Of a stretch of DNA of 64,000 nt, positions 27,042-32,781 are shown in pieces. Under the pieces are notes generated by a model. It was not told the origin of the DNA. It made no database searches and worked only from the letters and a program-made list of their open reading frames with translations. The translations under genes and the position numbers were made by a program. Position 1 is the stretch's first letter; the number at the start of each line of letters is the position of its first letter. This DNA is from Candidatus Poribacteria bacterium (lineage in GTDB: Bacteria > Poribacteria > WGA-4E > GCA-2687025), in the NCBI GenBank assembly GCA_963665845.2, contig OY762492.1, positions 2,240,001 through 2,304,000 of the forward strand, in the 5' to 3' direction.

Positions 27042-28343
27042 ATGGAGAACCTATTGCCGATGCGCCTATCGTTCACCGACTTTAAACGGCTCTTCAAATG
27101 GAAACGAAAAAACCCGTCTGAACCGACGCTGCGCGAACTGGGCGCGTCCGGCACCGCGCTTTTCAGCGGCAATCTATGGGAAGAACTGCTGCCTGAATTG
27201 AGCGGACCGGCGCGCATGGAGGTTTATGAACGCATGCGCGCCGACGCGCAGGTTGCCGCCGTCCTGAACGTCATTGAGCTGCCGATACGCGCCGCCGATT
27301 TTACCGTTGAGCCTGCTGACGCCGGCGCGTCCGCCCGCGAAACCGCCGAATTCATCGACGACGCCCTCCGCTGTATGGACGACTCCTTCGACGATTTCCT
27401 GCGCCAATCGCTGCTGATGCTCGCTTACGGGTTCATGCTGTTTGAGAAGGTGTATGAGGTCCGCCCGGACGGGCGCATCGGGTGGGTCAAGTTTGCCCCG
27501 CGCCTGCCGCGCACCGTCGTACGCTGGGCTCATGACGGCGCGGGTCGGCTGTCGGGCGTTGAGCAGCGCGTCATCGGCGACGCGGCGCGCCATGTCGTCA
27601 TCCCCGTTGAGAAGCTGATGCGGTTCACCTACCGCCAAGAGGGGGACAATTACGAAGGGCGCCCTCTGCTCAAAGATGTGTATAAACACTGGCGGCACAA
27701 GGACACATTATACAGGTTTGCGGCGATTGCGGCGGAGCGCGCCGGGGTCGGCGTTCCGATCATCACCGTGCCGCCTGGGACGCCGCAGTCGGATCTGAAC
27801 GCGGCGTTTCAGATTGTGGAGGCGTTTCGCGCGGGCGAAAAGACCGGCATTGTGCTGCCGAACGATTACACGTTTGCGCTGTCGGCGACGCGCGGATTTC
27901 CGCATATGAACCTGATTGAACATCACAACGGCATGATCGCCAAGGCGGCTCTCGCGCAGTTTTTGAATCTCGGTCAGGCAAATGTGGGCAGTTTTGCGCT
28001 GTCCGCCTCGCAGACCGACCTGTTTTTGATGGCTCTGAACGGCTTGCTGCAGCATCTGTGCGCCGTCATCAATCGGCAGGCTGTACAGGAGCTGTCGCGC
28101 TGGAACTTCGGCGGGAACGCGCCGGTTCCGCGCATCCGCGCCAAGCTGCGCAACTACGACACGCGCCAGCTTGCGGAGACGCTGGATATGTTGACGCGCG
28201 GCGAGCTGCTGACGCCGGACGAGTCGGTTGAGGCGTTCATACGCGAAACGCTTGACCTGCCTTCCAAACGCGCATCGAAACGCGCCAACCATGAACAGAA
28301 AGGAGAAACGATGCATGACAATCGAAAAGGAGAACGTCTATGA
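27042..28343 (+). CDS. Phage portal protein (Mu gp29/DUF935-like)
   Basis: YERMRADAQVAAVL, LAYGFMLFEKVY, EGRPLLK..YKHWRHK, ERAGVGVP, GSFALS. Start at 27042 or 27060; the longer ORF start is repeat-derived. Confidence 0.88.
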   Translation: MENLLPMRLSFTDFKRLFKWKRKNPSEPTLRELGASGTALFSGNLWEELLPELSGPARMEVYERMRADAQVAAVLNVIELPIRAADFTVEPADAGASARETAEFIDDALRCMDDSFDDFLRQSLLMLAYGFMLFEKVYEVRPDGRIGWVKFAPRLPRTVVRWAHDGAGRLSGVEQRVIGDAARHVVIPVEKLMRFTYRQEGDNYEGRPLLKDVYKHWRHKDTLYRFAAIAAERAGVGVPIITVPPGTPQSDLNAAFQIVEAFRAGEKTGIVLPNDYTFALSATRGFPHMNLIEHHNGMIAKAALAQFLNLGQANVGSFALSASQTDLFLMALNGLLQHLCAVINRQAVQELSRWNFGGNAPVPRIRAKLRNYDTRQLAETLDMLTRGELLTPDESVEAFIRETLDLPSKRASKRANHEQKGETMHDNRKGERL

Positions 28344-29275
28344 ACAAAACGCCTGCCAAACGGTTTTTCGCCTCTCTCGCGCTGAATGAGCGCGTCGGCG
28401 GGGAGTCGCCGAAATGGGTCTCTAGCGTTCAGCTGCTGCGCAAAGGCGTGTTTCAGCACGCTTGGCACGGATCGCTTGAGATCGATGAAGATTTGTTTGC
28501 CTCGCTGATACGCAACTTCGACGCGGACGCGCGCGGCATCGACATCGCGCTGGATGTGGAGCATATGCCGGATCTGGGCGCCGCGGGATGGTTCCGCCGT
28601 CTGTTTGCGGACAACTCGGAGAGCGAGCTGTGGGGCGATGTGGAATGGACGCCTGCCGGACGAAAGCTGGTGGAGGAGGGCGCGTTCAAGTACCTCTCCA
28701 TCGAATACGATCTGGACTACGCGGACGAGGAGGGCGGCAAACATGGTCCGACGATGCTGGGCGCGGCGTTGACAAACCGCCCGTTCATCAAGCGCATGCG
28801 CGCCGCTTCGTTCCGTTTTGCCGAGCCGAGCAGCGACCCTGGGATGATTCTGTTGACGGAGCAGGAGCGGCGTCTCCACAGCGAGCTGGCGCGGCTGGAC
28901 GCCGAGAAGGCGCGGCTGGAAACGGAGCTGCGCAAGGCGTCGGTGGAGCGGGTTCTCTCGGAAGGCAAGCGGAGGGGGCGCGTCTCTCCCGCGATGGAGA
29001 GCTGGCTGGAGGAGCTGGCGGAAAAAGAGGGGGTTGAACGTCTGCGCGCCGTTCTGGAGACGCTTCCTGAACAGATCGACTTTTCGGAGATTGGTTCGCC
29101 CGGCGGCGCGCAGTCGACAAGCGCGGCGGACGCTCTCCATGAAGCGGTGAACGCGGAGATGCGCCGCATGCGCGAGGAAAACCCGGACGCGAACCCGTCC
29201 TATGCGGACGCGCTGGCGGCGGTGGAATCTCGGCAGCCGGGGCTTGTGGAGGCGTATAAGGCGCAGCGGCGGTGA
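28340..29275 (+). CDS. Mu-like prohead protease/scaffold (gpI type)
   Basis: LDVEH...AAGWF...VEWTPAG..LV....FKYLSIEY...GAALTNRPFI, followed by a coiled-coil scaffold region. Confidence 0.9.
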   Translation: MNKTPAKRFFASLALNERVGGESPKWVSSVQLLRKGVFQHAWHGSLEIDEDLFASLIRNFDADARGIDIALDVEHMPDLGAAGWFRRLFADNSESELWGDVEWTPAGRKLVEEGAFKYLSIEYDLDYADEEGGKHGPTMLGAALTNRPFIKRMRAASFRFAEPSSDPGMILLTEQERRLHSELARLDAEKARLETELRKASVERVLSEGKRRGRVSPAMESWLEELAEKEGVERLRAVLETLPEQIDFSEIGSPGGAQSTSAADALHEAVNAEMRRMREENPDANPSYADALAAVESRQPGLVEAYKAQRR

Positions 29276-29327
29276 GCGGCGCGCTGTTTTCTTAAACAAA
29301 AACGCCATGCAAACGAAAGGAGAGGTC

Positions 29328-29723
29328 ATGGCGACTCAACAGCTGGTGACAGGAAACGAGGTCAGTTACGGGGCTTCCGCCGACTTGAGCGGCAAGCCGT
29401 TTCGTTATGTGAAACTGGCGTCGATATCGGGTCAGGTCGCGCTGTGCGGCGCGGCGGACATACCGGTCGGCGTCTTGCAGAATCGCCCCCGTTCGGGGGA
29501 CGCCGCGGCGGTCATCACGCTTTCAGGCGCGGTGGCGAAGGCGGTCTCGGACGGGTCGCAGAGCGCCATCGCCATCGGCGACACGGTCGGCTCCGACGCG
29601 AACGGAAAGGCGGTCAAAAAGACGGTCGCCGGGAGCTGGTACAACGGCGTCGCCCTGGAAACGTCCAGCCAGGACGGCAAGGTGATTCGCATTCAGCTGA
29701 CCGGTCCGCAGCAGCGGTCTTAA
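29328..29723 (+). CDS. Capsid decoration/cement protein (DUF2190-like)
   Basis: Gly/Ala-rich, PVGVLQN, AIAIGDTVGSDANGKAV, GVALE. Lies between protease and capsid genes. RBS AAAGGAGA. Confidence 0.75.
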   Translation: MATQQLVTGNEVSYGASADLSGKPFRYVKLASISGQVALCGAADIPVGVLQNRPRSGDAAAVITLSGAVAKAVSDGSQSAIAIGDTVGSDANGKAVKKTVAGSWYNGVALETSSQDGKVIRIQLTGPQQRS

Positions 29724-29759
29724 CACTGATCAGGGCGATGAAAACGAAAGGAGACGCCC

Positions 29760-31451: not shown

Positions 31452-31970
31452 ATGGCGTATGTCGTTCTTTCCGAAAAGCAAGCGGCGGCGTCCGAACATA
31501 CGTTGGAGGGGTTGAAGCGGCTGAAAGCGGTTCTGGACGCGAACGCGGCGGTACTGAAGTCGGGCGGGCGCTCGGCTGTGTCGACAACCGTCTTTACGGG
31601 CGCGCAGCATGCTATCGGGCGGTTTCCAGCGATACAGGCGGAAGCCGCTGAAGCGTACGAGGAGCCGACAGGGATGCGCTGGGGGGCGGTCAGCCTGCTG
31701 TATATGCGCTTTCGGCTCTTTGCGTTCGATATTGCGCTGGGGCGTCCGTCGGCTCTGGCGGAGAACCTGGCGCAGTTCAGCGACCGCATTCAGGCGGTGT
31801 TGCGGAAAAACAGGACGCTGGACGGGTTCTGCCGAAATGTGCATATCGATAAGGTGGTGCATGGGCGTCTTCGCGGCGGACCGCGCAGTTCGAATCCGGT
31901 GTTTGCGTCGCATCCGATCTTGGCGGCGCAGATCGATGCGACCGTTGAAAAAGCGATTGAGCGCGATTAA
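31452..31970 (+). CDS. Putative neck/tail-completion protein
   Basis: Position between adaptor and tail tube. IQAVLRKNRTLDGFC resembles tail-terminator proteins. Confidence 0.5.
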   Translation: MAYVVLSEKQAAASEHTLEGLKRLKAVLDANAAVLKSGGRSAVSTTVFTGAQHAIGRFPAIQAEAAEAYEEPTGMRWGAVSLLYMRFRLFAFDIALGRPSALAENLAQFSDRIQAVLRKNRTLDGFCRNVHIDKVVHGRLRGGPRSSNPVFASHPILAAQIDATVEKAIERD

Positions 31971-31994
31971 ACAAAACAAGAGGAAGGAGAGCCG

Positions 31995-32465
31995 ATGACG
32001 GTTCAGCACGGGCGGCGCGGGTCGGTGTCGCTTTTGAAGCCCGGGCGCGATGTCGGTCAGCTCAACGCCCCCGACCAGACGATTCCGCTGGGGCAGACGC
32101 TTTCGTGGAGCTTGACGATACGCCAGAGCATCGCTGACGGCGCGACCAACTCGGATACTTTTCAGACATTTTCGAATGGCAAATTGCGCTGGACGGCGGA
32201 GGTGGAGATGTCATGGGACGCCGCGGACGCTTCATTGAATCAAGACAAGCTGTGGGAAGCGATCCTGCCGGACGAGTTTGACAAAAGCGCCGTTCGGGAT
32301 CGGATGGTACAGGCGAATCTGTATGTGGACGGGAGCCGCTGTTACTACGGCGCGGCGTATATTGAGCGGGCGGATGTGCATGCTCCGTTTGACGGACCTG
32401 TGACGGCGCGGTTTCAGCTGCGCGGCAACGGACCGCTCAAATTCAGCGCCGGCGGGTCGGCGTGA
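31995..32465 (+). CDS. Siphovirus/GTA-type tail tube protein
   Basis: LSWSLTI...WTAEVEMSWD...YYGAAYI......PFDGPVTARFQLRGNGPL, 156 aa. Confidence 0.75.
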   Translation: MTVQHGRRGSVSLLKPGRDVGQLNAPDQTIPLGQTLSWSLTIRQSIADGATNSDTFQTFSNGKLRWTAEVEMSWDAADASLNQDKLWEAILPDEFDKSAVRDRMVQANLYVDGSRCYYGAAYIERADVHAPFDGPVTARFQLRGNGPLKFSAGGSA

Positions 32466-32502
32466 CGCGGCTCATGAAAGCGGCGTTTTTTGAAAGGAGA
32501 AG

Positions 32503-32781
32503 ATGATGGAGATGCGGGAAGGGGGCGTCGGCGCGATGGAGGCTGCCTTGGAACGGCTTCAGGCGCTCGCCCAGAAAGACCATGACCTGTTGACGCAGTT
32601 GGATATGAAGGTGGGGGAGGCGCTGGCGCGTCTTTCCAACCATGAGCAGCGTTTCACCGATTTTGAGACGCGCATACGGGAGCTGGAGTCGGCGAAGTGG
32701 CGCGTGGCGGGCGTCGCGGCGGCGATTTCAGCTCTCATACCGATCGTTGTGTCGCTTTTGACGACGCGCATTGCCGGTTGA
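32503..32781 (+). CDS. Coiled-coil protein with C-terminal TM helix (XhlA/holin-like)
   Basis: HEQRFTDFETRIRELESAKWRVAGVAAAISALI. RBS AAAGGAGA. Last gene of the module. Confidence 0.6.
   Translation: MMEMREGGVGAMEAALERLQALAQKDHDLLTQLDMKVGEALARLSNHEQRFTDFETRIRELESAKWRVAGVAAAISALIPIVVSLLTTRIAG

What the first reader, a model, noticed from the sequence alone, without database searches (positions are those of the whole stretch)
27042..32781. Intact, minimal phage head-neck-tube module with signs of domestication: candidate new gene-transfer-agent-like system
Seen: eight contiguous plus-strand ORFs with no stops or frameshifts (portal, Mu-I protease/scaffold, decoration, capsid, adaptor, neck, tail tube, XhlA-like). 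Six of them have a uniform AAGGAGA RBS. GC is host-like, host intergenic repeats sit inside the module (30753-30995), and the flanks are a methyltransferase gene and serA. The window has no integrase, repressor, replication gene, MuF, tape measure, baseplate, fibre or endolysin. Established: known GTAs (RcGTA, Bartonella GTA, VSH-1, Dd1, VTA) are phage-derived structural modules without replication or integration genes and are often split over several loci. Inference: this is a host-maintained particle-forming system of Mu-like head ancestry, distinct from RcGTA, rather than a decaying prophage.
Basis: partly seen in the sequence, partly recalled or inferred. Interest (0 to 1): 0.9.

Follow-up and report, generated by a model that had tools for sequence, protein, structure and literature searches.

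The report
Tail-stripped domesticated phage head, Poribacteria
A sponge-symbiont bacterium (Poribacteria) and its relatives keep intact, strongly conserved virus genes for building a capsid and a DNA-packing motor, and this genus lacks the tail genes its relatives carry except one tube gene with a fast-changing loop, so it likely makes a host-owned, stub-tailed particle that may move DNA between cells.

Summary
The eight ORFs are real and intact. The host is Candidatus Poribacteria. Orthologues occur in 5 of 8 genomes of the family (4 of 5 genera) and in 0 of 168 other genomes of the phylum. dN/dS against the sister species is 0.05-0.17 for seven genes (decoration 0.31, tube 0.43), like housekeeping genes. 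Codon use and sequencing depth match the host, and the genome holds only two Xer-sized recombinases. This is a domesticated module, not a decaying prophage. Two sister genera keep a complete short siphophage tail (three tube genes, chaperones, tape-measure-like, Dit-like, Tal-like). In this genus those genes were not found; one tube gene remains, and its putative ring-stacking loop is hypervariable (41% identity against 99% next door). Best reading: a new GTA-like particle with a one-ring stub. Particles, packaged DNA and transfer are untested. The scan has not reported this module before; it noted similar domesticated heads in other phyla and a different one in Poribacteria.

The parts
10925..12358 (-). 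Large terminase (TerL), 477 aa, at a separate locus; Walker A, Walker B and nuclease acidic motifs present
   Evidence: phrog_2 E 6e-40; motifs in alignment; solved relatives 8dkr and 4idh; directly upstream of the portal in G002 and G004; omega 0.105
27042..28343 (+). Portal, Mu gp29 type
   Evidence: PF06074 E 1.5e-51; the start at 27042 is the one shared with G001; omega 0.074
28340..29275 (+). Mu-I-type prohead protease/scaffold
   Evidence: PF10123 E 1.3e-26; omega 0.167
29328..29723 (+). Capsid decoration/cement protein
   Evidence: PF09956 E 4.9e-8; omega 0.31, CI 0.10-0.71
29760..30698 (+). Major capsid protein
   Evidence: phrog_1005 E 1.4e-92; omega 0.082, GC3 0.82
30753..30995 (.). 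Recent insertion of host palindromic repeats; not part of the system
   Evidence: Absent in G001 (77-nt spacer) and in a contig of run X5 that joins 30723 to 31003
31047..31451 (+). Head-tail adaptor, Mu gp36 type
   Evidence: PF07030 E 8.6e-5, phrog_195 E 8.4e-5; omega 0.11
31452..31970 (+). Tail terminator; the most conserved gene of the module
   Evidence: AlphaFold2 pLDDT 85.6; Foldseek: P74-26 neck, T5 p142, lambda gpU, TM 0.51-0.67; omega 0.046
31995..32465 (+). The only tail-tube gene of this genome (relatives G002 and G003 have three)
   Evidence: phrog_1407 E 1.3e-6; profile search finds 1 copy in G000 and G001, 3 in G002 and G003; omega 0.43
32130..32186 (+). Hypervariable segment of the tube protein, residues 46-64; by position the beta2-beta3 stacking loop (inferred, not modelled)
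   Evidence: 41% mean identity among 5 genus sequences against 99% for residues 65-92; at least 24 of 57 nt differ in run X5, at most 33 of 422 elsewhere in the gene
32503..32781 (+). Small coiled-coil protein with a hydrophobic C-terminal end; holin-like role inferred
   Evidence: DUF7201, phrog_5225; last gene of the module in G002 and G003, after the Tal-like gene; omega 0.15

Best explanation
This is a phage-derived head-and-neck gene set fixed in the chromosome of a Poribacteria family and kept under purifying selection, which likely builds capsids that a separately encoded terminase would fill with host DNA, and which in this genus is predicted to end in a stub of one tube ring instead of a tail. 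SHOWN: portal, protease, decoration, capsid, adaptor, terminator, tube, a small membrane-type protein and TerL are intact, host-like and conserved across four genera; G002 and G003 add a short siphophage tail; that distal tail was not found in G000 or G001. INFERRED steps: (1) a small part of the population switches on the operon and terL from host promoters; (2) protease and capsid assemble a prohead around the portal; (3) TerL, with no small terminase found and no replication genes at either locus, cuts and packs host DNA by the headful; (4) the adaptor closes the head and binds the terminator directly, as in Mu and T5, which have no stopper; (5) one tube ring docks under the terminator, and with no tape measure or Dit to start a tail its stacking loop is left as the free tip of the particle; (6) that loop diversifies because it touches a changing partner, most simply a surface structure of recipient cells; (7) recipients take the DNA up through ComEC/ComF/DprA-type genes, which the genome has. 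How the particle leaves the cell is open: the M15 lysin of relatives was not found here.
For: Orthologues in G000-G004 (4 of 5 genera, 5 of 8 genomes of the family) and 0 of 168 other genomes of the phylum. Same flanks in G001 for both loci. Omega 0.046-0.17 for seven of nine genes; host controls recA 0.065, rpoB 0.175, serA 0.188, serS 0.207; dS similar. GC3 0.71-0.82 against a genome median of 0.73. Capsid clade of 11 sequences (support 0.95) and TerL clade of 5 (0.968) are each monophyletic among phage homologues. Rooted host trees put module carriers on both sides of the family root. Module depth equals flank depth in 4 of 4 runs. Only two tyrosine recombinases, both Xer-sized. No other structural phage gene found when 1178 and 1702 ORFs of related phage loci were compared with the genome. 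TerL cluster has 15 members, all 475-479 aa. Neck without stopper is how Mu is built (PMC11915804). The stacking loop points to the baseplate and is needed for tail polymerisation (PMC7048315). GTA small terminases lack the DNA-binding domain and CcGTA has none known (PMC11841831). ComEC, a ComF-like gene and DprA present.
Against: No particle, packaged DNA or transfer has been seen. RcGTA needs tape measure, Dit and baseplate to hold and eject DNA (PMC7296036), and these were not found here, so delivery by a stub has no precedent among GTAs that I read. No lysin found. Tree congruence is partial: capsid and TerL trees put G002 first, host trees put G003 first, and the host order of G002/G003/G004 is weakly supported. 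G002 has a frameshift in the capsid gene, though its ppdK is also split, which points to assembly errors. Absent from genus g5 (3 genomes). No shift to carbon-cheap residues in the capsid (2.92 against 2.94 +/- 0.07). The loop's excess over the synonymous rate is only borderline against G001 (p 0.04-0.07, region chosen after looking). Pfam terminase models missed the real TerL, so family-based absences are weak in this lineage; G000 is 90% and G001 91% complete.
Confidence: 0.5

Rival explanations
1. Tail piracy: the DNA-filled heads are released without a tail, and the single tube ring is an adapter whose variable loop plugs into the top ring of tails made by other phages, giving a GTA that borrows its delivery device.
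For: Head, adaptor and terminator strongly conserved while the distal tail was not found. The variable segment is, by position, the loop that inserts into the next tail ring. cf-PICIs release tail-less capsids that join foreign tails (10.1101/2025.02.11.637232, abstract and Introduction).
Against: Free phage tails normally carry their own terminator (recalled), so a particle with its own terminator and tube ring would need uncapped tails. No helper phage identified; no prophage found in this genome.
Confidence: 0.15
2. Ordinary split GTA: the distal tail and lysis genes exist at other loci of this genus but have diverged beyond detection or lie in unassembled DNA.
For: TerL has already moved to its own locus. 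GTAs are often spread over loci (PMC11841831). Genomes are about 90% complete. G002 and G003 Dit-like proteins share only 33%.
Against: Dit-like, Tal-like N-terminus and lysin queries found nothing at E<=0.1 in both G000 and G001; two-sequence HMMs found no convincing hit in G000; the same queries find the G002/G003 pair at E 1e-35 to 1e-64. The conserved loop motif of G002/G003 tubes is lost in this genus.
Confidence: 0.12
3. Co-opted for something other than gene transfer: anti-phage interference (host capsid, terminase or tube subunits that poison the assembly of an infecting phage, or decoy particles) or a cargo shell acting on the sponge or on neighbours.
For: A rapidly changing tail-assembly surface fits an arms race with phages. 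Tail loss removes the usual delivery route.
Against: The whole head pathway with an intact ATPase and nuclease is kept at housekeeping-level constraint, more than a single interfering subunit needs. Defence genes are usually patchy (recalled), whereas this locus is fixed in the populations sampled.
Confidence: 0.18
4. Remnant of a prophage in slow decay, or separate insertions of related phages in each genus.
For: Different flanking genes in G002; loss of tail and lysin in this genus; frameshifts in G002; L023 still has a small-terminase-like ORF and a lysin; imperfect tree congruence.
Against: Omega 0.05-0.17 with confidence limits far below 1; 10-15 intact members per 90% cluster; terL kept after moving away from the operon; no integrase or replication gene next to any copy examined; host-like codon use.
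Confidence: 0.05

Closest known systems
RcGTA-type gene transfer agents (Rhodogtaviriformidae)
   Same: Chromosomal head-tail cluster under purifying selection, split over loci, no replication or integration genes; relatives G002/G003 have a short tape-measure-like gene (407 and 266 aa; RcGTA g11 about 216 aa, PMC7296036) with Dit-like and hub-like genes.
   Different: Mu-type portal, protease and adaptor; no stopper (RcGTA has one); a PDB search with the capsid protein returned only 3bjq at E<=1; different phylum; this genus lacks a detectable distal tail.
Other GTAs (BaGTA, BhGTA/VSH-1, Dd1, VTA)
   Same: Independent domestication of phage structural genes with a terminase.
   Different: No sequence comparison with these was run; hosts differ; no run-off replication signal here (depth flat).
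Capsid-forming PICIs (cf-PICIs)
   Same: Own capsid and packaging genes without a complete tail.
   Different: cf-PICIs are mobile 10-15 kb islands that replicate, excise and pack their own DNA; this module is split over two loci, has no integrase or replication gene, and keeps a terminator and a tube gene.
Phage Mu / T5-type connector
   Same: Portal + gp36-type adaptor + terminator with no stopper (PMC11915804); terminator fold closest to P74-26 and T5 p142.
   Different: No sheath, transposase or MuF; non-contractile tube genes; host-fixed.

Membership tests
Gene transfer agent (viriform), criteria of PMC9662315 | Caudoviricete-derived particle proteins | tested here: met
   (by similarity; no images)
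Gene transfer agent (viriform), criteria of PMC9662315 | Mostly packs random pieces of host DNA | not testable with these tools
   Intact TerL and no TerS found fit but do not show it
Gene transfer agent (viriform), criteria of PMC9662315 | Fully endogenised in the host genome, often at several loci | tested here: met
   Two loci among host genes, same in G001; depth equal to flanks; no phage integrase
Gene transfer agent (viriform), criteria of PMC9662315 | Own genes cannot be fully packaged | not testable with these tools
   Capsid capacity unknown; the two loci span about 22 kb here and lie on different contigs in G001
Gene transfer agent (viriform), criteria of PMC9662315 | Vertical inheritance and co-diversification with the host | tested here: inconclusive
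   Family-restricted, monophyletic, dS like host genes; branching order only partly congruent and host order weakly resolved
Gene transfer agent (viriform), criteria of PMC9662315 | Packaged DNA is delivered to other cells | not testable with these tools
   Distal tail not found in this genus, which leaves delivery open; uptake genes present
Rhodogtaviriformidae (RcGTA type) | RcGTA-like capsid and neck (adaptor, stopper, terminator) in an alphaproteobacterial host | tested here: not met
   Mu-type portal, no stopper gene between adaptor and terminator, no RcGTA entry among PDB matches of the capsid; host is Poribacteria
cf-PICI | Mobile island that replicates, excises and packs its own DNA | tested here: not met
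   No integrase at either locus, TerL elsewhere, no depth excess
Temperate prophage (active or cryptic) | Integration, immunity and replication genes with a contiguous virion gene set | tested here: not met

The most novel reading that the evidence does not exclude
A gene transfer agent caught in the act of giving up its tail: the family ancestor had a short siphophage tail built from three tube paralogues, and this sponge-symbiont genus kept only head, neck and one tube ring whose exposed stacking loop is under diversifying selection because it plugs into tails stolen from other phages. That would be a host-owned, tail-pirating GTA able to send random chromosomal DNA wherever the borrowed tail leads.
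Probability: 0.15. Interest if true: 0.93.

Novelty: new variant of a known kind. Interest (0 to 1): 0.74.

Why it matters
Only a handful of independent GTA lineages are known and new ones are hard to tell from dead prophages (PMC11841831). This one passes the genomic tests in an uncultured phylum of sponge symbionts, where no GTA turned up in my searches. It also offers a natural series: tailed copies in two genera, a tail-stripped copy in this genus, and a different conserved head module in the sister genus that lacks it. That series makes a standing question testable: what do hosts keep phage heads for, and is a tail needed? The hypervariable 19-residue segment points to one surface where the particle meets its partner.

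Tried and rejected
Pfam terminase models PF03237, PF17289, PF04466 found nothing in the genome although TerL is there; they are not used as evidence of absence. MuF, PhageMin_Tail and Terminase_2 models were also blank and carry the same weakness. A shared CGTTAA element upstream of portal and terL looked like a regulon motif; rejected, since the best 12-mer match (10 of 12) was reached by 64 of 400 random upstream pairs and CGTTAA is generally enriched upstream of genes (43 of 1570 against 10 expected). The first fold of the neck protein on 4 sequences failed (pLDDT 41); the 24-sequence fold worked. PDB sequence searches with tube and neck profiles gave nothing significant, so the loop assignment rests on position and motif. 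The Atlas search of the neck protein gave only unnamed clusters. A small-terminase HMM from 18 phage ORFs upstream of related terL genes had no hit in the genome (best E 0.12). Carbon-cost bias: none. No RNA holder was listed; this says nothing on expression. The two closest 'viral' capsid hits are L024, the same contig as G003's module, and L023, a 9.6-kb contig of unknown status. tRNA-Asp/Val near the module were considered as an attachment site; their 3' ends face away from the module and no integrase is near. The methyltransferase as phage cargo: rejected. No complex prediction was sent. Supplements of the papers were not read; a GTA prediction for Poribacteria could stand in one.
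Full report
OBSERVATION. The eight ORFs between 27042 and 32781 are open and contiguous. Pfam and PHROGs name a Mu-type portal, a Mu-I protease/scaffold, a cement protein, a major capsid protein, a Mu gp36-type adaptor and a tail tube. 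The 172-aa ORF folds with pLDDT 85.6 on a 24-sequence alignment and matches tail terminators of P74-26, T5 and lambda. The last ORF has no XhlA match at E<=0.1; it is a coiled coil with a hydrophobic end. Six of eight starts have AAGGAGA, against 99 of 1987 long ORFs in the genome.

THE NINTH GENE. In relative G002 a large terminase stands directly before the portal. Its orthologue (62%) is in this window at 10925-12358, minus strand, among host genes. Walker A, Walker B and the nuclease acidic motifs are present; 14 of 15 members of its 90% cluster pass all five strict motif strings, and the other fails one. The nearest solved structures are 8dkr and 4idh; that these are the headful terminases of phages E217 and Sf6 is recalled. 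No small terminase was found, with the caveat that such genes are hard to detect.

HOST AND RANGE. Record titles of two close loci name Candidatus Poribacteria. The portal has orthologues at 58-95% in G001, G002, G003 and G004, a 25-28% phage-type match in G007, none in G005 and G006, and none in 168 genomes of other families. Capsid: 4 of 41 genomes at 70% or more. TerL: 4 of 41. G003 and G004 are broken within the module, which explains their missing genes. Among 375 capsid homologues the best 9 are 71-96% identical, 4 are 55-58%, and the rest of the 120 listed are 46% or less. In a tree of 57 sequences the 11 close ones form one clade (0.95); five TerL sequences form one clade among 29 (0.968). 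Rooted host trees place G003 first and join this genus with g5 (rpoB 100%), so carriers lie on both sides of the family root and g5 would have lost the module. Branching order is only partly congruent: an ingroup-only comparison gave the same topology (support 61 and 89; one of three possible), but capsid and TerL trees put G002 first where host trees put G003 first.

SELECTION AND FIXATION. Against G001, omega is 0.074 (portal), 0.082 (capsid), 0.046 (terminator), 0.105 (TerL), 0.11 (adaptor), 0.15 (small protein), 0.31 (decoration) and 0.43 (tube), all with bootstrap limits below 1; protease 0.167. Host genes in the same comparison range from 0.065 (recA) to about 0.2 (serS, serA), with similar dS. 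GC3 is at or above the genome median for most genes. Contig depth over the module equals that of serS and serA in 4 of 4 runs from 2 studies; three of these may be the source sample or its study. One contig of the independent run X5 spans both halves and lacks the inner repeat, so the module is not misassembled there. The genome has two tyrosine recombinases of Xer size and no other structural phage gene matching 2880 ORFs of related phage loci, apart from a half terminase noted below.

THE TAIL WAS THERE AND IS GONE. G002 and G003 continue after the terminator with three tube paralogues, a chaperone with an overlapping second frame, a tape-measure-like ORF of 407 or 266 aa alike only in its last 40 residues, a Dit-like protein with a carbohydrate-binding insert, a 634-aa protein that the Atlas places with Tal/hub proteins, and the small membrane-type gene. 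The tape-measure and Dit labels rest on position and are inferred. L023, G003 and L125 carry an M15 peptidase lysin before the portal; G002 and G004 do not. In G000 and G001 the Dit-like, Tal-like and lysin queries found nothing at E<=0.1 and a tube profile found one copy. Both genomes are about 90% complete.

THE TUBE LOOP. Capsid, terminator and TerL of this genus each fall in one 90% cluster of 10, 10 and 15 members, while the tube splits into five clusters at 77-86%. The variation sits in residues 46-64 (41% mean identity among five sequences; one near-duplicate dropped) and 15-30 (59%), while residues 65-92 are 99% identical. Against G001 the segment has pN 0.34 and pS 0.125, the rest of the gene pN 0.044 (p 9e-8); its excess over the pooled synonymous rate of 0.225 is borderline (p 0.04-0.07). 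In run X5 at least 24 of 57 nt differ there, 17 of them at first or second codon positions, against about 5% over the whole module. Recombination could also give this. By position between two strands and by the motif kept in G002 and G003, the segment is the beta2-beta3 stacking loop, which inserts into the next ring towards the baseplate and is needed for polymerisation (PMC7048315, passages).

MECHANISM. The head pathway is complete. A neck of portal, adaptor and terminator without a stopper is how Mu, T5 and DT57C are built, and the adaptor may hold the DNA (PMC11915804, passages). Without tape measure and Dit a tail cannot start in the usual way, so I expect one tube ring under the terminator with its loop free. 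I put 0.93 on domestication, 0.5 on a stub-tailed particle carrying host DNA to cells, 0.15 on tail piracy, 0.12 on hidden tail genes, 0.18 on a non-transfer role and 0.05 on decay. ComEC, a ComF-like gene and two DprA-domain genes are present; that RcGTA recipients need such genes is recalled.

COMPARISON. Of the six GTA criteria in PMC9662315 (Introduction and passages) two are met, one is inconclusive and three need experiments. It is not RcGTA-type (PMC7296036, passages) and not a cf-PICI (10.1101/2025.02.11.637232, abstract and Introduction). PMC11841831 was read in parts 1-3 of 5; PMC8245591 in passages, with no GTA mention. Searches for a description of this system found none; the library lacks most subscription papers and I read no supplements. 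Earlier notes of this scan list domesticated head modules in other phyla and a podovirus-type one in Poribacteria; look-ups by this capsid and by place found no note on this module.

VERDICT. A real, previously undescribed domesticated phage module, best read as a new GTA-like lineage, with a derived tail-stripped form in this genus. New variant of a known kind; interest 0.74.

Noticed in passing
L088:8740-17220 (G007) and L086:8526-17206 (G005): Genus g5, which lacks this module, has a different conserved head-neck cluster: scaffold 89%, capsid (phrog_1328) 97%, a 1049-aa glycosyltransferase, M15 lysin, neck genes; 84% nucleotide identity over 8.7 kb; no tube or tape measure beside it; a portal piece lies 8 kb upstream in G007. 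Possibly a second domestication that replaced the first.
   Followed up: partly
L018:10594-11448 (G000 C1:2862593-2863447): A second, ATPase-only terminase homologue (25-29% to TerL), Walker A present, Walker B Glu replaced, no nuclease domain; not found in G001 with the TerL query; about 1.2 kb from comEC.
   Followed up: partly
window 8888-12358: terL is followed on the same strand by an oxidoreductase and a comF-like gene, also in G001. Both terminase genes of the genome lie within about 1.2 kb of a DNA-uptake gene; may be chance.
   Followed up: partly
L009:12788-14527 and L008:3667-5383: Three tandem tail-tube paralogues in G002 and G003, one with a 60-residue N-terminal insert and one with a C-terminal extension; could mean a very short tail in which each ring is a different protein.
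   Followed up: partly
L023:1-9635 and L125:1-2847: Contigs with related terL-lysin-portal order (63% and 52% TerL); L023 also has a small-terminase-like ORF and a glycosyltransferase after the capsid. Host or phage origin not settled.
   Followed up: partly
window 25960-26961 and 24330-24497: Three tandem 301-bp copies and a 24-bp tandem array of a host palindromic repeat; the core palindrome occurs 863 times on one strand of the genome. A REP-associated-type GIY-YIG ORF lies at 58872-59177 (label recalled).
   Followed up: no
window 24499-25881, 41879-43285 and genome-wide: Dozens of paralogous DNA methyltransferase-endonuclease fusion genes are scattered over the genome.
   Followed up: no
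window 60348 to beyond 64000: Start of a 3960-aa exported-looking protein.
   Followed up: no
window 28298-28343: The portal's last codons hold a duplicated AAGGAGA and a second ATG before the protease start, suggesting translational coupling.
   Followed up: no
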